Below, in pieces: positions 637-5,952 of a DNA stretch of 64,000 nt (positions within the stretch are counted from its first letter, which is position 1; each line of letters begins with the position of its first letter). Source of the stretch: Candidatus Zixiibacteriota bacterium (GTDB taxonomy: Bacteria > Zixibacteria > MSB-5A5 > UBA10806 > 4484-95); the NCBI GenBank assembly GCA_037441845.1, contig JBBIRK010000006.1:148880-212879 (forward strand). The letters are read 5' to 3'. The notes under the pieces were generated by a model. It had not been told where the DNA came from. It saw nothing but the letters and a program-made list of their open reading frames with translations, and ran no database searches. The position numbers and the translations under genes are program-made.

Positions 637-2058
637 TCAGCGAGTAATGACCGGATCGATCCGGCGGCGGCGATTGAAATCGACTGTTACTTTCGTACCG
701 ACGCCCAGCTCCGATTCCATTTTTATCGCGCCGCCGTGTTCCTGAACTATTTTATTGGCGATGAACAGCCCGAGACCTGTTCCCTCGGCCCCCTTGGCGG
801 AGAAAAAGAGGCTGAATGCCTTGTCGCAGGTTTCCCGATCCATACCTATGCCGTTGTCGATTATCTCGAACCGAAGTTGATCTTGCCGGTCGATCGCCCT
901 GATCGTCACTTCATGCGATTCTTTCGCCTTGTCCACCCTGCAAGCGTCGAGCGCGTTTTCCAGCAGGTTCACCATCATCGATCGGACCGCCTTGAGATCG
1001 GCCTCGAAATCGCCGATTTGCCCGTCGGTATCGATTTTCAAGTCGATTCGATGATCGGCCATTTTGGGTTTGATTATCGATTCTATTTCGCCGAGCAGCG
1101 TCCCCACGTCGATTAAGGCCCATTCCGGCTCGCGGTCTTTGGCGTAGTAAAGAATATCGAGCACCATGCTGCGGATGCGGGAGATATTTCTCTGGGCTAT
1201 TTCCCATCCCTGACGGATCCTTTCGCTGTTGTTCTGCTCCAGTCCCTTGTTCACCAGATAAGTCGCCCCGTCGAGGCCGTTCAACAAACCGCGGATTCCG
1301 TGCGAAATCGAGCTGATCAACAACCCGGTCTGGGTAAGCTTATCCTGGAGTTCTCTTATCATCGTGATATCGGTGCTCATCTCTATCACGCTTTCGATTT
1401 CGCCGGATTGATTGCGGATCGGAGCCGTCACCACCAGCACGTTCATCGGTTTGCCGTCCTGCGAGGTTACGATTTCCTCGCTCGAATGTGGAAGGCCGTC
1501 GGCGAACGTTTCCTGGACCATGCAGGGCGTACATTCGCGTTGGCGATGCTTATAGACCTTATAGCATTTTTCGCCGTAGTGGCAGCCGAAAGATTCCCGA
1601 TGCAAACGGTTCGCCTCGATTATCCGCAGCTGGCGGTCCTGAATCGATATGAAGCACGGAACTTCCTCGAAAAGCTGCCTCAAGCGCTCCTGGCTGAATC
1701 TCAACTGATTCTGAAGCGAATGCAGTTCGGTGATATCGGTCGACATTTCCATCACCGCGACTATGTTGCCCGAATCATCGAAAATCGGAGTGGTGTTCAC
1801 CAGGACCCAGATCGACCTGTTTTCGAGATTGGTGACCAGCTCCTCGCTTTCATGACTTTGACCATCGCGGAACGTTCGTTCGATCGGGCATCTTTCGCAT
1901 TTGTCCGGCCGCCTCTTATACATCTGGAAACAATGGCGCCCATTGAACTCGCCGAATTCCCGGACGAAGCGGTCGTTGGCTTCGATTATGCGGAAATCGC
2001 GATCCTGCACGGTAATGTAGCAGGGCATCGATTTGAAATATCGCTGATACGATTCCAT
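637..2058 (-). CDS. Sensor histidine kinase with two tandem cysteine-rich PAS-like domains and a C-terminal HisKA/HATPase_c.
   Basis: The C-terminus has an H-box (SISHGIRGLLNGL) and ATPase motifs (DNGIGMD, GTGLGLFIA). There are two repeated roughly 110-aa modules. The first is MPCYITVQDRDFRIIEAN...HCFQMY...DKCERCP...MEMSTDITE. The second is VPCFISIQDRQLRIIEAN...GCHYGEKCYKVY...ECTPCM...IEMSTDIT. Each carries 4-5 conserved Cys. Confidence 0.75.
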   Translation of the reverse strand: MESYQRYFKSMPCYITVQDRDFRIIEANDRFVREFGEFNGRHCFQMYKRRPDKCERCPIERTFRDGQSHESEELVTNLENRSIWVLVNTTPIFDDSGNIVAVMEMSTDITELHSLQNQLRFSQERLRQLFEEVPCFISIQDRQLRIIEANRLHRESFGCHYGEKCYKVYKHRQRECTPCMVQETFADGLPHSSEEIVTSQDGKPMNVLVVTAPIRNQSGEIESVIEMSTDITMIRELQDKLTQTGLLISSISHGIRGLLNGLDGATYLVNKGLEQNNSERIRQGWEIAQRNISRIRSMVLDILYYAKDREPEWALIDVGTLLGEIESIIKPKMADHRIDLKIDTDGQIGDFEADLKAVRSMMVNLLENALDACRVDKAKESHEVTIRAIDRQDQLRFEIIDNGIGMDRETCDKAFSLFFSAKGAEGTGLGLFIANKIVQEHGGAIKMESELGVGTKVTVDFNRRRRIDPVITR

Positions 2059-2085
2059 CCTATCAATCGTCGCCGATCGCCTTGT

Positions 2086-3825
2086 TTACGAGCGATGCGG
2101 AATGTTGAGTATCTTGCGCACGGTCAATAGCAGTCTTTCTTCGTCTATAGGCTTATCCGCATACCCTTCGGGGGGAGCGAATGAGTTATCGTAAATCAAT
2201 TTTCGCAATTCCGGCTGTCCGCTGATAACGAATATCGGCAAGCGCGTCAGCTTCTGATCCCTCCGAATTTCCTCGAAAACCTCCACGCCGCTTTTGCCGG
2301 GCATCGAAAGATCGAGCGTCATCAAATGAGGTTTTTGGCGTCTGAGAGCGGTGAGCGCCTCGTCCCCGTTCGATGCTTTTATGACCGTTCCGCCGTTATC
2401 CTCGAACACCGCCGAAAGGAAAGTCACCATGTCCGGCTCGTCATCGACGACCAATATGGTGTATCCCTTGAGGAACGCATCGCCCCTGACAACCGGCACC
2501 GCCACTCTCGGCTTCTTTTCGATGACCACGGCATTGGCCACCATTTCGCCCACCAAGGATACTTTCATGTTCAGCTTGTAATGACGGATCAAATCGGTGA
2601 GAGCATCGACGCAATTATGACAGGCGGTGGCCACGATTTTCGCCCCGGTCGCTTTCAGCTGCTCGGCTTTGATTCTTGCCGCCTCCAGGCGCCTTTTGGA
2701 ATATTCCGACATCGACATGGCGCCGCCGCCGCCGGAACAACACCAATTATCGGCCCGATTGGGGTACATCTCCCGGAATTCCATCACGCTTTGCCGCAGC
2801 AGAAACCTCGGTTCCTCGGTAATTCCGCCGCTGCGGGCGTAATTGCACGGGTCATGGTAAGTCACGGGCTCCTTGTTTCTACTTTTATCCAGCTTCAACC
2901 GCCCGCTATTCACATAATCGCAGACGACTTCCAGAAAATTAAGAATGGGTTGTTTCATGATAATCCCGGACCAGTTCGGCGACTCCCACTTCGTAGATCT
3001 GTACCCGTGTCCGCATTCGGATGTTACCAGCATTTTCCCATTCAATCGTTGCACGTTTTCGAAAACCAGTTTCCCCATGTGGCCGCCCAGAGCGTTATCG
3101 CCCGAGAACAGACCGAAGTTCGTATTGTCCCACCCTTTGGCGGGCAACGTCCAGCTTTCATCGACCGCGTAGAATATCTTGGCCGATGCCAGCAGACTCA
3201 TAGGCGCATATTTGACCTCGCGCGGATTTATCGCATAAACGATATTGCAATCGGGAATATCCATCGGCATTTTGGCATCCGGATCGCCCAATTCGTTTTG
3301 CAACTCCTCCGAAAGCCAGTCGATCGTCTCCAGGTATTCTTCGTCGCTCACTCCCATCTGATTGCCGACTTCCCACTGATCCTTGTTGACATCCAAAATC
3401 CCCTGAGGCGCAACCTTGAGCTCGGTCAGTATCCCCCTGGCGGTGCGGATTATCAGCGCCTTGTCCACTCCCATGGGACAATTGAAAGTACAGCGGCGGC
3501 ACATGGTGCAACTTCCGAAACAGATATCTTTTAATTCTTCGAGATCCGCATCGGTCGAGATATCTTTCGCGCCCACCCATCCTGGCAATACTCTGCCCAG
3601 CCAATCGAAATGCTTTTTATAGATTTTCCTGACCTTGTCGGCTTTATACGACGGCGACATTTTGGGATCTTTGGTAGCCTGATAATAATGACAGGTTTCG
3701 GTGCAATTCCCGCAATGAACACAAACTCCCATTGATATGATCGCCTGACGATTCATCCTTTTTCGGAAAAGCTCGATCGCCTTGATGGCCTTGTCCGATT
3801 TTATCGATTCCGATCTTGACGCCAT
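2086..3825 (-). CDS. DsrK/HdrD-like iron-sulfur protein (two 4Fe-4S motifs plus CCG domains) fused to a C-terminal response-regulator receiver (REC) domain.
   Basis: The N-terminal ferredoxin motifs are CVHCGNCTETCH and CFGSCTMCRRCTFNCPMG. The CCG-type motifs are HDPCNYARSGG, NWCCSGGGGAMS and ATACHNCVDAL, as in DsrK/HdrD. The C-terminal roughly 120 aa are a canonical REC: ILVVDDEPDM, MTLDLSMPGKSG, FVISGQ, YADKP. The acid pocket, phospho-acceptor Asp, Thr/Ser and Lys are all present. Confidence 0.75.
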   Translation of the reverse strand: MASRSESIKSDKAIKAIELFRKRMNRQAIISMGVCVHCGNCTETCHYYQATKDPKMSPSYKADKVRKIYKKHFDWLGRVLPGWVGAKDISTDADLEELKDICFGSCTMCRRCTFNCPMGVDKALIIRTARGILTELKVAPQGILDVNKDQWEVGNQMGVSDEEYLETIDWLSEELQNELGDPDAKMPMDIPDCNIVYAINPREVKYAPMSLLASAKIFYAVDESWTLPAKGWDNTNFGLFSGDNALGGHMGKLVFENVQRLNGKMLVTSECGHGYRSTKWESPNWSGIIMKQPILNFLEVVCDYVNSGRLKLDKSRNKEPVTYHDPCNYARSGGITEEPRFLLRQSVMEFREMYPNRADNWCCSGGGGAMSMSEYSKRRLEAARIKAEQLKATGAKIVATACHNCVDALTDLIRHYKLNMKVSLVGEMVANAVVIEKKPRVAVPVVRGDAFLKGYTILVVDDEPDMVTFLSAVFEDNGGTVIKASNGDEALTALRRQKPHLMTLDLSMPGKSGVEVFEEIRRDQKLTRLPIFVISGQPELRKLIYDNSFAPPEGYADKPIDEERLLLTVRKILNIPHRS

Positions 3826-5411: not shown

Positions 5412-5577
5412 ATCCTTGTCAAGTTATTTTTTTCACAATATAGCTGTCCATTTTCCGGGCCCCTGCAACCGATATTATCGCTGCCAAAATAATGAGCATC
5501 GCCCCGCCAAAATCGCTTGATATTTGTCCGCCGACTGGATAATTTCGAATCGTTAACTGGCAAAGGAGAAGTGGATC

Positions 5578-5952
5578 ATGGCCAAGAGAATTCTGATTGT
5601 CGACGATGAAGCCGATATCCGGACTTTCTTATCGGTTTTTCTGGGTGATAACGGCTATCAAACCGAAACCGCCGAAGATGGCGATATCGCTCTCGAAAAG
5701 GCGAAAAAGACCAAGCCGGACCTGGTTACCTTGGATATAATAATGCCCAATCAAACCGGCGTTAAATTCTATCGCGAACTTTGCAAGGAAAAAGAGTTAA
5801 GCAAAATACCGGTCATAATTCTGAGCGGCGTGACCAGATATAAAGAGCTGTTCGCCCGCGATCATGCGACCATGCCCAAGCCGTTCGCCTTTATCGAAAA
5901 GCCGCTCGATCGCGATGAGTTGCTGAAAAAAATCAAGCAGGCTATAGGCTAA
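5578..5952 (+). CDS. Single-domain CheY-like response regulator (receiver only).
   Basis: ILIVDDEADI, LVTLDIIMPNQTG, ILSGV and EKP are the canonical REC residues. The protein is 124 aa with no output domain. It is divergent from the HdrD-REC operon. Confidence 0.85.
   Translation: MAKRILIVDDEADIRTFLSVFLGDNGYQTETAEDGDIALEKAKKTKPDLVTLDIIMPNQTGVKFYRELCKEKELSKIPVIILSGVTRYKELFARDHATMPKPFAFIEKPLDRDELLKKIKQAIG

What the first reader, a model, noticed from the sequence alone, without database searches (positions are those of the whole stretch)
637..5952. Candidate redox-sensing two-component system built on a DsrMK-like module: HdrD/DsrK-like protein fused to a receiver domain, with its own cytochrome b, a Cys-rich PAS kinase and a helix-turn-helix/Cys/REC regulator
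Four co-directional, tightly spaced genes on the - strand encode four products. (i) A regulator of 276 aa with an HTH_17 helix-turn-helix, a 7-Cys cluster and a receiver-like domain. (ii) A NarI/DsrM-type dihaem cytochrome b. (iii) A DsrK/HdrD-like CCG-domain Fe-S protein that carries a complete, canonical C-terminal REC domain with every phospho-transfer residue present. (iv) A histidine kinase with two Cys-rich PAS domains. A stand-alone CheY-like receiver is divergent. DsrK/HdrD proteins are the catalytic thiol/disulfide (or DsrC-trisulfide) reductase subunits of quinone-linked membrane complexes. I am not aware of a described case where this catalytic subunit carries a receiver domain. The arrangement suggests either phosphorylation control of a membrane thiol:quinone oxidoreductase, or the use of a DsrMK-like unit as a sensor of quinone or thiol redox state feeding a phosphorelay. 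Its proximity to the complete sulfate-reduction island makes a role in regulating sulfur respiration plausible.
Basis: partly seen in the sequence, partly recalled or inferred. Interest (0 to 1): 0.85.

Follow-up and report, generated by a model that had tools for sequence, protein, structure and literature searches.

The report
Receiver-fused DsrK-like redox signalling cassette
A membrane-linked iron-sulfur enzyme of the type that sulfate-reducing bacteria use to reduce disulfides is here permanently fused to a phosphorylation "receiver" switch and always sits next to its own cytochrome and sensor kinase; this gene set recurs in genomes from many uncultured phyla, often beside sulfate-reduction genes, and nobody appears to have studied it.

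Summary
Window 637-5952 encodes, on the minus strand, an HTH_17/7-Cys regulator, a small NarI-like cytochrome b, a 579-aa Fer4+CCG protein with a complete C-terminal receiver (REC), and a soluble kinase with two Cys-rich PAS domains. A CheY gene is divergent. The fusion is not a frameshift. At least 120 protein clusters and 80 of 80 examined genome loci from about ten phyla, all MAGs, carry the same ~580-aa architecture. All Fe-S/CCG cysteines and the REC acceptor Asp505, Asp462 and Lys558 are invariant.

The cytochrome is adjacent in 78/80 loci and the kinase in 68/70 loci with enough contig. Twelve of 80 loci hold dsrAB, dsrMK(JOP), sat, aprA or qmo genes within 7 kb.

- The enzyme part resembles HmcF/TmcB more than DsrK. 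A true DsrMKJOP lies elsewhere in the window.
- The cytochrome keeps only one haem-ligand His pair, so it is not shown to be dihaem.
- The regulator's "receiver" is degenerate.

The closest precedent is the unfused hmcE-hmcF-rrf1-rrf2 arrangement of Desulfovibrio. My best reading is a kinase-controlled quinone-linked thiol/disulfide module tied to dissimilatory sulfur metabolism. A sensor role for the module is not excluded. Function is untested, and I found no paper on it.

The parts
1..492 (-). 5' part of a TauE/SafE-family (sulfite-exporter family) membrane protein gene, directly downstream of the kinase and cut by the window edge. It may be co-transcribed.
   Evidence: tblastn matches it at 77% identity to residues 3-166 of the 315-aa ORF that follows the kinase in L001. 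That ORF hits Pfam TauE at 1e-37. It was found after the cassette only in L001.
637..2058 (-). Soluble sensor histidine kinase with PAS-PAS-HisKA-HATPase_c architecture. Each PAS domain carries a conserved Cys motif.
   Evidence: Pfam and NCBIfam hits. No TM segment. In 63 homologues H253 is 100% conserved, C135/C165/C176/C179 are 98%, C43/C54/C57 are 95-97% and C13 is 63%. It lies directly downstream of the fusion in 68 of 70 loci with room.
2086..3825 (-). HmcF/TmcB/DsrK-like Fe-S/CCG protein fused to a C-terminal receiver (579 aa).
   Evidence: AlphaFold2 mean pLDDT is 88 and pTM 0.72. The N-terminal ~450 residues match M. smegmatis EtfD (9ojn) at E 1e-16.
3466..3726 (-). Ferredoxin-like region with two CxxCxxCxxxC motifs (C35/38/41/45 and C106/109/112/116), presumed to bind two [4Fe-4S] clusters.
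   Evidence: Fer4_8 covers aa 34-120. Seven of the eight Cys are invariant in 121 sequences and C45 is at least 90% conserved.
2608..2865 (-). CCG domain with the full C-X34-CC-X38-C-XX-C motif (C327, C362, C363, C402, C405). In HdrB/HdrD-type proteins this motif binds the non-cubane [4Fe-4S] cluster at the thiol/disulfide active site.
   Evidence: CCG covers aa 321-406 at 1.4e-10. All five Cys are invariant.
2461..2529 (-). Variable linker between the catalytic part and the REC domain (aa 433-455).
   Evidence: pLDDT is below 50 for residues 441-448. The region is gapped and unconserved in alignment A1.
2119..2457 (-). Receiver (REC) domain with D461/D462, acceptor D505, S535, Y555 and K558.
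   Evidence: Response_reg 3.8e-18. Best NCBIfam REC match is the DVU0259 family, 79 bits. TM-score is about 0.9 to RR468, Spo0F and DivK. Residues were aligned to E. coli CheY.
3828..4517 (-). Five-helix NarI-superfamily membrane protein, distantly HmcE/TmcC-like. It retains one predicted haem-b ligand pair (H81, H189).
   Evidence: HmcE 2e-12 and TmcC 1.4e-8, both far below cut-off. TM segments and the hhalign match to the window's DsrM and to the NarI-like F7 protein (94% probability) are. It is adjacent upstream of the fusion in 78 of 80 loci.
4581..5411 (-). HTH_17/MerR-like DNA-binding protein with a 7-Cys domain and a degenerate receiver-like C-terminal domain. The probable true start is Met13 at 5375.
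   Evidence: C97/111/114/124/141/145/148 and D209 are invariant in 24 homologues. It lacks the DD pair and the Lys. It is present upstream in 20 of 62 loci with room.
5395..5422 (-). Promoter-like TTGACA-16-TAATAT in the divergent intergenic region, heading the minus-strand operon.
   Evidence: Consensus scan, 10 of 12 matches. This is a pattern match only.
5578..5952 (+). Stand-alone CheY-like receiver, divergent from the operon.
   Evidence: Response_reg 6.7e-24. DVU0259 family 1.8e-35, 121.6 bits against a cut-off of 160. Orthologues lie directly after the kinase in 34 of 63 loci with room, and somewhere within 7 kb in 48 of 80.
38972..41526 (-). Associated rather than contiguous: a second DsrMK-like pair, made of a NarI-like 313-aa protein and a DsrK-like 567-aa protein without REC. 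In 17 of 80 other loci this pair lies within 7 kb of the cassette.
   Evidence: Nitrate_red_gam 1e-10 and Fer4_8/CCG hits. DsrK NCBIfam score is 325 bits against a cut-off of 400.

Best explanation
This is a conserved, widely distributed and so far uncharacterised signalling-redox cassette. Its invariant core has three genes: a one-haem NarI-type membrane anchor, a cytoplasmic HmcF/TmcB-like Fe-S/CCG protein with a C-terminal receiver, and a soluble kinase with two Cys-rich PAS domains. A CheY-like receiver is usually present. A MerR/HTH_17-type 7-Cys regulator, an Rrf2 regulator and a Macro-domain protein are sometimes present.

Shown: the architecture, the conservation of every cofactor ligand and every phosphotransfer residue, the fixed gene order, and recurrent linkage to dsr/apr/sat/qmo genes.

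Inferred mechanism:
1. The kinase senses cytoplasmic redox state, or O2/NO, through metal- or Fe-S-binding or thiol-switch Cys motifs in its PAS domains.
2. It autophosphorylates on His253 and transfers the phosphoryl group to Asp505 of the fused receiver, and also to the CheY-like protein, which acts as a sink or connector.
3. The phosphorylated receiver sits on a flexible linker. It changes how it packs against the CCG catalytic domain or against the cytochrome.
4. This gates electron flow between the menaquinone pool and a cytoplasmic thiol/disulfide or trisulfide substrate, with a DsrC-type protein as the obvious candidate.

In short, it is a post-translationally switched HmcEF/TmcBC-like module that tunes electron delivery in dissimilatory sulfur metabolism. 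It is a fused form of the hmcF-rrf1 association known in Desulfovibrio.
For: - Domain content and the HmcF/TmcB-like nature of the enzyme part.
- The fold of the N-terminal ~450 residues matches the HdrD-like part of EtfD, and the REC fold matches bona fide receivers.
- The fusion is found in at least 120 protein clusters. It is in 80 of 80 examined genome loci, out of 498 tblastn-confirmed stretches, from about ten phyla.
- Fifteen of the 16 Fe-S/CCG Cys are invariant across 121 sequences, C45 being the exception at >=90%. REC residues D462, D505 and K558 are also invariant and D461 is >=90% conserved. Both chemistries are therefore under selection.
- The kinase lies directly downstream in 68 of 70 loci, the usual signature of a cognate kinase-receiver pair. 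The cytochrome is upstream in 78 of 80.
- The kinase has an invariant H-box His and the N/G boxes, so it should be catalytically competent.
- The core encodes no DNA-binding response regulator, so the receiver-bearing enzyme is the simplest output.
- dsrAB, dsrMK(JOP), sat, aprA or qmoAB lie within 7 kb in 12 of 80 loci spanning bins labelled Ignavibacteria, Bacteroidetes, Zixibacteria, Armatimonadota, Gemmatimonadota, Acidobacteriota and Methylomirabilales. A DsrMK-like pair is nearby in 17 of 80.
- The window carries the full sulfate-reduction gene set.
- Published precedent: hmcE-hmcF are followed by rrf1 (DVU0530, a CheY-like receiver) and rrf2, which affect hmc expression.
- An Rrf2-family gene lies in the flanks of 13 of the loci, usually just upstream of the cassette.
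Against: - No experiment exists on any member, and no literature was found in six targeted literature searches.
- The direction of information flow is not established. A C-terminal receiver is more typical of adaptors, sinks and hybrid kinases than of classical enzyme-output regulators (established knowledge).
- The substrate of the CCG site is unknown.
- Whether the many cassette-bearing bins from lineages not classically known as sulfate reducers carry dsr genes could not be checked.
- 55 of 80 loci show no sulfur gene within 7 kb.
- The cytochrome keeps only one haem site. That fits a non-energy-conserving or sensory module at least as well as a respiratory one.
- The cofactor of the Cys-rich PAS domains is unknown. 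The only PDB similarity is marginal, to flavin-binding PAS/LOV domains.
- AlphaFold gave no information on how the receiver docks.
Confidence: 0.42

Rival explanations
1. The cytochrome b/Fe-S-CCG pair is the sensor, not the output. It equilibrates with the menaquinone pool, or with a DsrC-like thiol/trisulfide pool. It uses its CCG site to reduce or oxidise the Cys motifs of the kinase PAS domains, or the 7-Cys HTH regulator, and so sets kinase activity. The fused receiver docks the soluble kinase at the membrane complex and serves as a feedback or sink site. The CheY-like protein and the HTH/Rrf2 regulators carry the output.
For: - The kinase has no membrane or periplasmic input domain, and its PAS Cys motifs are 95-98% conserved.
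- The cytochrome has lost the distal haem site, which would argue against an electrogenic respiratory role.
- Cys-rich MerR/HTH_17-type regulators accompany both this module and the REC-less DsrMK-like pair.
- The receiver is C-terminal, as in CheV and hybrid kinases (established knowledge).
- There is a precedent for a membrane redox complex that sets the Fe-S state of a MerR-type regulator: Rsx-SoxR, mentioned in PMC4215793.
- ArcB- and RegB-type kinases sense quinones through Cys residues (established knowledge).
Against: - No CCG enzyme is known to act on a kinase or a transcription factor.
- The model needs several unprecedented steps.
- The 7-Cys regulator is present in only 20 of 62 loci and CheY follows the kinase in 34 of 63, so no single output is universal.
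- The four PAS Cys could simply bind a structural metal.
Confidence: 0.27
2. The module mainly controls transcription, in the manner of Rrf1/Rrf2. The receiver, fused or free, together with the HTH-7Cys or Rrf2 proteins, controls expression of the neighbouring dsr, DsrMK-like or hmc-like genes. The fusion only tethers a regulatory receiver to the complex whose expression it reports on. Enzyme activity itself is not switched.
For: - rrf1 and rrf2 next to hmcF are described as regulators of hmc expression.
- Rrf2 (13 loci), HTH-7Cys (20 of 62) and MerR-Cys (next to the DsrMK-like pair) genes recur in the neighbourhood.
Against: - A receiver covalently tied to a membrane-bound enzyme cannot itself reach DNA.
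- DNA-binding partners are absent from most loci.
- The HTH protein's receiver-like domain lacks the residues needed for phosphotransfer.
Confidence: 0.15
3. The fusion is a sequencing or assembly artefact that joins an HdrD-like gene to a separate CheY gene.
For: None was found.
Against: - The reading frame is continuous through 2440-2470.
- The same ~580-aa architecture occurs in at least 120 independent protein clusters and in 80 of 80 loci from independent assemblies.
- The closest relative, L001, has the same single ORF at 93% identity.
Confidence: 0.01

Closest known systems
HmcE-HmcF with Rrf1/Rrf2 (hmc operon of Desulfovibrio/Nitratidesulfovibrio vulgaris Hildenborough)
   Same: It has a NarI-related cytochrome b plus a cytoplasmic GlpC/HdrD-superfamily Fe-S protein, followed directly by a CheY-like receiver gene (rrf1, DVU0530) and an Rrf2 regulator that affect hmc expression. 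HmcF is the best NCBIfam match of the fusion and HmcE is the best match of the cytochrome. Rrf2 genes recur next to the cassette.
   Different: - Here the receiver is covalently fused.
- A dedicated PAS kinase is always adjacent.
- There are no HmcABCD periplasmic or membrane partners.
- Scores are far below the HmcF cut-off (303 against 750) and the HmcE cut-off (47 against 275).
- The cytochrome shows one haem site.
- Whether the fused REC is orthologous to Rrf1 was not tested.
TmcB-TmcC of the TmcABCD complex, with the DVU0259 'DivK' receiver family
   Same: TmcB is the second-best match (299 bits) and TmcC also matches the cytochrome. Both the fused REC and the free CheY match the NCBIfam DVU0259 family best. 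From memory, and not verified here, DVU0259 lies a few genes upstream of tmcA-D (DVU0263-0266).
   Different: All scores are below cut-off: 299 against 735 for TmcB, and 79 and 122 against 160 for the receivers. There is no TmcA cytochrome c3 or TmcD. The receiver is fused.
DsrMK of the DsrMKJOP complex
   Same: It shares the two-subunit logic: a NarI-type cytochrome b plus an Fe-S/CCG protein with two [4Fe-4S] motifs and one complete CCG motif. DsrK reduces the DsrC trisulfide (PMC10861901 title and abstract; PMC10504309).
   Different: - The window has its own bona fide DsrM (534 bits) and DsrK (740 bits) at 18865-21470.
- The fusion scores 249 against a cut-off of 400.
- DsrM has four haem His, whereas this cytochrome has two conserved.
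- No DsrK-with-REC turned up in the six targeted literature searches.
Mycobacterium smegmatis EtfD (PDB 9ojn)
   Same: It is the best structural match for the Fe-S/CCG part: Foldseek E 1e-16 over 451 aligned columns, and phmmer E 1.4e-15.
   Different: Identity is only 19%. EtfD is a single polypeptide carrying its own membrane domain, it has no receiver, and it serves electron-transfer-flavoprotein oxidation.
Redox-sensing kinases ArcB and RegB (quinone-oxidised Cys) and NreB (PAS with a 4-Cys [4Fe-4S] cluster)
   Same: In these, cytoplasmic PAS or linker cysteines, or an Fe-S cluster, couple respiratory redox state to His-Asp signalling (established knowledge). The kinase here has four conserved Cys per PAS domain.
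   Different: No significant sequence similarity was shown. The only PDB similarity of PAS2 is marginal, to NifL/LOV-type PAS (E 0.014). The cofactor is unknown. Those kinases do not come with a dedicated cytochrome b/CCG module.
CheV and hybrid kinases (C-terminal receivers acting as adaptors or phosphate sinks)
   Same: The receiver sits at the C-terminus of a non-DNA-binding protein, alongside a free CheY-like protein.
   Different: The partner domain here is a redox enzyme, not CheW or a kinase core.

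Membership tests
DsrK (NCBIfam NF045796) | Whole-protein score at or above the curated cut-off of 400 bits | tested here: not met
   The score is 248.7 bits. The window's true DsrK at 18865-20538 scores 740 bits.
DsrK/HdrD/HmcF/TmcB superfamily (Fe-S + CCG proteins) | Two CxxCxxCxxxC ferredoxin motifs plus a complete CCG motif (C-Xn-CC-Xn-C-XX-C) | tested here: met
   Fer4_8 and CCG Pfam hits are above cut-off. Of the 13 motif Cys, 12 are invariant in 121 sequences and C45 is at least 90% conserved. The fold matches the EtfD HdrD-like part.
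HmcF (NF045711) / TmcB (NF045724) | Score at or above cut-off (750 / 735 bits) | tested here: not met
   Scores are 302.9 and 298.7 bits. These are the best-scoring relatives, but the fusion is not a member.
HmcF / TmcB | Encoded with HmcA-E, or with TmcA, TmcC and TmcD (periplasmic multihaem cytochrome c partner) | tested here: not met
   No recurrent cytochrome c, HmcB/C-like or TmcD-like gene family appears in the window cassette or among the recurrent gene families of the 80 loci.
Response-regulator receiver domain (Pfam PF00072) | Score above the gathering cut-off and a (beta-alpha)5 fold | tested here: met
   66.1 bits against 30.2. The model shows alternating strands and helices across 456-574. 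TM-score is about 0.9 to RR468, Spo0F and DivK.
Response-regulator receiver domain | Acidic pair, phospho-acceptor Asp, Thr/Ser, Tyr/Phe and Lys-Pro | tested here: met
   D461/D462, D505, S535, Y555 and K558-P559 align with CheY D12/D13, D57, T87, Y106 and K109. D462, D505 and K558 are invariant.
Response-regulator receiver domain | Is phosphorylated by a cognate kinase | not testable with these tools
   There is only adjacency evidence: the kinase is downstream in 68 of 70 loci.
DVU0259 'DivK' receiver family (NF045717) | Score at or above 160 bits | tested here: not met
   The fused REC scores 79.4 bits and the free CheY 121.6 bits. This family is the best match for both.
NarI/DsrM-type dihaem cytochrome b | Pfam Nitrate_red_gam or NCBIfam DsrM/HmcE/TmcC score at cut-off | tested here: not met
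   There is no Pfam hit. HmcE scores 47 against 275, TmcC 34.5 against 240, and DsrM 17 against 300. Remote homology is supported by hhalign, at 94% probability to the window's NarI-like F7 protein.
NarI/DsrM-type dihaem cytochrome b | Four conserved haem-ligand His (two in TM2, 10 residues apart; two in TM5, 18 apart) | tested here: not met
   Only H81 (TM2) and H189 (end of TM5) are invariant in 57 homologues. H189 aligns with DsrM H275, and no His occupies the positions of the second pair.
HisKA-class sensor histidine kinase | H-box His, HATPase_c with N/G boxes | tested here: met
   HATPase_c 2.2e-22. HisKA scores 21.9 bits, slightly below the 26.9 cut-off. H253, N368, D401/G403/G405 and G426/G428/G430 are at least 95% conserved. 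The closest solved structure by sequence is ThkA, 3a0r.
Phospho-accepting response regulator (claim made for the 276-aa HTH protein) | Receiver domain with acidic pair, acceptor Asp and Lys | tested here: not met
   Response_reg scores 16.7 bits against 30.2. 'TE' replaces the DD pair and there is no Lys-Pro. Only the Asp at the acceptor position (D209) is conserved.

The most novel reading that the evidence does not exclude
A DsrMK/HmcEF-derived membrane module has been turned into a dedicated redox sensor. Its one-haem cytochrome b and CCG cluster read the menaquinone pool, or the DsrC-type thiol/trisulfide pool, and write that state directly onto the cysteine motifs of a soluble histidine kinase. 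The kinase is held at the complex by the fused receiver. This would be the first CCG enzyme whose substrate is a signalling protein, and the first dedicated sensor of flux through dissimilatory sulfur metabolism, shared by about ten mostly uncultured phyla.
Probability: 0.25. Interest if true: 0.85.

Novelty: new variant of a known kind. Interest (0 to 1): 0.62.

Why it matters
Little is known about how dissimilatory sulfate or sulfite reduction is regulated, especially after translation. The role of the receiver protein Rrf1 next to HmcF has stayed obscure since the 1990s.

A fusion of an HmcF/DsrK-type catalytic subunit with a receiver implies that such receivers act directly on, or together with, the CCG subunit. 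The fusion is strictly conserved with its own cytochrome and kinase and is repeatedly embedded among dsr, apr and sat genes. This gives a concrete and testable handle: phosphotransfer to Asp505 and its effect on quinol:disulfide activity.

It also marks a candidate regulatory or sensory module for the recently recognised dsr-carrying lineages (Zixibacteria, Ignavibacteria, Acidobacteriota, Gemmatimonadota, Armatimonadota, Planctomycetota), which matter for environmental sulfur cycling. More generally, it would add a membrane respiratory Fe-S enzyme to the list of response-regulator output or input domains.

Tried and rejected
- Frameshift or assembly artefact. Rejected. The frame is continuous and the architecture is conserved in at least 120 clusters and 80 loci.
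- 'Dihaem' cytochrome. Rejected as unproven, because only one His pair is conserved.
- The fusion is the genome's DsrK. Rejected, because a true DsrTMK(J)OP lies at 16530-22037.
- The link to sulfur genes is a peculiarity of this genome. Rejected, because 12 of 80 loci from other phyla have dsr/apr/sat/qmo genes within 7 kb. QmoC adjacency and the TauE gene are specific to the window and its near relative L001.
- Literature. Six targeted searches combined HdrD/DsrK/HmcF/TmcB, CCG, GlpC, receiver and two-component terms with DVU locus tags. None gave a description of the fusion. The Pereira 2011 comparative-genomics paper is not in the library. The D. vulgaris response-regulator mapping paper does not mention DVU0258-0260 or tmc. 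The 2023 dsr synteny paper never mentions the terms 'response regulator', 'histidine kinase', 'two-component' or 'regulator'. Two later searches did retrieve the hmc/rrf1/rrf2 papers.
- PDB sequence searches found no close solved homologue of the catalytic part apart from EtfD. They found no informative relative of the Cys-rich PAS domain.
- Spurious antisense ORF families (F6, F9, F10) in GC-rich loci were recognised and ignored.
- I ran no further search on finding a cultured host. None of the best 80 loci comes from an isolate.

Full report
**What is in the window**

ORF listing shows four tightly spaced minus-strand genes. Their gaps are 63, 2 and 27 bp.

- The 473-aa product (637-2058) is a histidine kinase. 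It has two PAS domains, a weak HisKA match and a strong HATPase_c match, and no hydrophobic segment.
- The 579-aa product (2086-3825) has a ferredoxin-like two-cluster region (aa 34-120), a CCG domain (aa 321-406) and a receiver domain (aa 457-569; 66 bits against Pfam's 30-bit cut-off).
- Against NCBIfam the catalytic part of the 579-aa protein is closest to HmcF (303 bits), TmcB (299) and DsrK (249). All are well below the curated cut-offs.
- The 229-aa product (3828-4517) has no Pfam hit and only faint HmcE/TmcC similarity.
- The 276-aa product (4581-5411) has an HTH_17/MerR-type helix-turn-helix and a sub-threshold receiver match.
- The divergent 124-aa gene (5578-5952) is a clear single-domain receiver.

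**The fusion is real**

The reading frame runs uninterrupted through the junction. A search of 5.8 billion proteins returned at least 120 clusters of 556-601 aa at 55-94% identity. All carry Fer4 + CCG + Response_reg.

A scan of one genome per species found 498 tblastn-confirmed stretches. The best 80 loci all match through the receiver. All 80 are metagenome-assembled genomes. Their labels are:
- Ignavibacteria, Kapaibacteria and 'Bacteroidetes'
- Zixibacteria
- Acidobacteriota
- Gemmatimonadota
- Planctomycetota
- Fibrobacteraceae
- Armatimonadota
- Methylomirabilales
- Thermodesulfobacteriota and 'Deltaproteobacteria'
- Myxococcales

The nearest relative, L001, is labelled Ignavibacteria and is 93% identical.

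In a 121-sequence alignment the following are invariant:
- seven of the eight ferredoxin Cys (C45 is at least 90% conserved);
- C271;
- the five CCG Cys, in the pattern C327-X34-C362 C363-X38-C402-XX-C405;
- receiver residues D462, D505 and K558.

D461 is at least 90% conserved.

The Ser/Thr and Tyr/Phe switch positions are also present.

AlphaFold2 gives a confident model with mean pLDDT 88. Only the linker at 441-448 falls below 50. By Foldseek the catalytic part resembles the HdrD-like portion of M. smegmatis EtfD (E 1e-16). The C-terminus superposes on classical receivers at a TM-score of about 0.9.

**The neighbourhood is a fixed cassette**

I ran tblastn of the window proteins against the 80 loci and clustered all their ORFs.

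| Feature | Frequency |
|---|---|
| Small cytochrome directly upstream | 78 of 80 loci |
| PAS-PAS kinase directly downstream | 68 of 70 loci with room |
| CheY-like gene right after the kinase | 34 of 63 loci with room |
| CheY-like gene anywhere within 7 kb | 48 of 80 loci |
| HTH/7-Cys gene upstream | 20 of 62 loci with room |
| Macro-domain gene just upstream of the cytochrome (absent in the window) | 38 loci |
| Rrf2-family regulator in the flanks (mostly upstream) | 13 loci |

Within the kinase family the H-box His is invariant. The PAS cysteines are nearly so: C135/C165/C176/C179 are 98% conserved and C43/C54/C57 are 95-97%. In the HTH family seven Cys are invariant, but the receiver-like domain lacks the acidic pair and the Lys.

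**The cytochrome**

Only two His residues, H81 in TM2 and H189 at the end of TM5, are invariant in 57 homologues. A profile alignment places H189 on H275 of the window's own DsrM. H275 is the second TM5 His, which in NarI numbering corresponds to the proximal-haem ligand. No His occupies the positions of the distal pair. One haem on the cytoplasmic side is the conservative reading.

**Link to sulfur metabolism**

The window carries the following:
- hemL-hemB-cobA/hemD-hemC-cysG(N)-hemA;
- a CoA-disulfide-reductase/rhodanese protein;
- dsrT and dsrM, K, O and P (16530-22037; the short gap between dsrK and dsrO, where dsrJ would lie, was not scanned);
- a GltD-like protein;
- dsrN, dsrBA, qmoBA, sat and aprA (aprB was not scanned);
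- QmoC, displaced to 6234-7358 beside the CheY gene.

The association is not peculiar to this genome. Bona fide dsrAB, dsrMK(OP), sat, aprA or qmoAB genes, at 50% identity or more to the window's, lie within 7 kb of the cassette in 12 of 80 loci from several phyla.
- In L066 (Zixibacteria) the cassette sits between dsrB and dsrMK-OP.
- In L012 (Armatimonadota) it sits between dsrA and sat/aprA.

A second, REC-less DsrMK-like pair is within 7 kb in 17 of 80 loci. It is often preceded by a MerR-type Cys-rich regulator. The window has this pair at 38972-41526, followed by a tandem DsrC-like protein. A TauE/SafE-family gene follows the kinase in the window (cut at position 1) and in L001 only.

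**Comparison with what is known**

I found no paper that describes a CCG, DsrK or HmcF protein fused to a receiver. Databases name these proteins 'response regulator' or 'Fe-S oxidoreductase/CheY-like'.

The nearest published system is the hmc operon of D. vulgaris. There HmcE (a NarI-related cytochrome b) and HmcF (a GlpC-superfamily Fe-S protein) are followed by rrf1 and rrf2, described as regulators of hmc expression (PMC10924467). Rrf1 (DVU0530) is a CheY-like receiver (PMC13344952). The cassette here looks like a fused and extended version of that arrangement, with a dedicated kinase. Both receivers in the window match the NCBIfam 'DVU0259' receiver family best. From memory only, that gene lies just upstream of the tmc operon.

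**Mechanism**

The following are shown: the architecture, the cofactor-ligand and phosphotransfer-residue conservation, the gene order and the sulfur-gene linkage.

The rest is inferred. My preferred reading (about 0.4) runs as follows.
1. The soluble kinase senses cytoplasmic redox state through its Cys-rich PAS domains.
2. It phosphorylates Asp505 of the tethered receiver.
3. The phosphorylated receiver gates electron flow through the cytochrome b/Fe-S/CCG module, between the menaquinone pool and a thiol/disulfide or trisulfide substrate such as a DsrC-type protein.
4. The free CheY acts as a sink or connector.

The main rival (about 0.27) reverses the flow. In it the module is the sensor and acts on the kinase's, or the HTH protein's, cysteines, while the receiver docks the kinase. 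The loss of the distal haem, the absence of any other input domain on the kinase and the C-terminal position of the receiver all favour this rival. The number of unprecedented steps counts against it. A purely transcriptional Rrf1/Rrf2-like role (about 0.15) fits the accessory regulators, but not a receiver fixed to a membrane enzyme.

**Verdict**

The finding is real and its description is largely correct. It is a new variant of known kinds: HmcEF/TmcBC/DsrMK-type modules on one side and receiver-coupled enzymes on the other. It is widespread and conserved, yet unstudied. Its function is open but directly testable.

Noticed in passing
window 6234-7358 (+): A bona fide QmoC (432 bits against a cut-off of 300) sits alone beside the CheY gene. 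It is about 21 kb from qmoA/qmoB (28622-32156) and is separated from them by haem-biosynthesis genes, dsrMK-OP and dsrAB. The same CheY-QmoC adjacency occurs in L001.
   Followed up: partly
window 37712-41526 (-): A second DsrMK-like module lies here. It consists of a NarI-like 313-aa protein, a DsrK-like 567-aa protein (325 bits, below the DsrK cut-off), a 192-aa ORF with no family, and a 225-aa protein made of two tandem DsrC-like domains. The NarI-like/DsrK-like pair recurs next to the REC cassette in 17 of 80 loci, often behind a MerR-type regulator with seven Cys.
   Followed up: partly
L-loci, e.g. L052 5052-5717; 38 of 80 loci: A Macro-domain protein (Pfam Macro 1.5e-27), from an ADP-ribose-binding/hydrolysing family, is encoded just upstream of the cytochrome (between the HTH gene, where present, and the cytochrome) in about half of the cassettes. 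It is missing in the window. This hints at an ADP-ribosylation layer of control.
   Followed up: no
window 1-492 (-) and L001 7932-8879: A TauE/SafE 'sulfite exporter' family membrane protein gene follows the kinase. It is cut by the window edge and is seen only in this genome and its near relative.
   Followed up: partly
window 14715-16448 (-): A 577-aa CoA-disulfide-reductase-like flavoprotein with a C-terminal rhodanese domain lies directly next to dsrP. This is the architecture of NAD(P)H-dependent persulfide/polysulfide reductases.
   Followed up: no
window 8038-14684 (-): A complete haem/sirohaem precursor cluster (hemA, cysG N-terminal domain, hemC, cobA-hemD fusion, hemB, hemL) lies between the cassette and dsrMK-OP.
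   Followed up: no
window 5395-5422 (-) versus ORF start 5411: The best promoter-like site overlaps the TTG start listed for the HTH protein, and homologues align only from about residue 10-27. The real start is therefore probably the ATG at 5375 (Met13), which makes the protein about 264 aa rather than 276.
   Followed up: partly
window 36570-37663 (+): A small Ogr/Delta-like zinc-finger protein and a CxxCxxCC (putative Zn/Fe-chelating) protein follow aprA. The CxxCxxCC protein also lies next to sat and aprA beside the cassette in L019.
   Followed up: no
L045, L077, L015: Some loci carry a second, divergent copy of the PAS kinase (32-35% identity) with one or two extra CheY genes on the opposite strand just downstream of the cassette.
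   Followed up: no
fused REC aa 536-555 and CheY aa 84-104: Both receivers replace the usual alpha4 region with a conserved Pro-rich stretch. G536, R541 and G554 are invariant in the fusion family, and Y545 and P552 are at least 90% conserved. This suggests a family-specific interaction surface.
   Followed up: no
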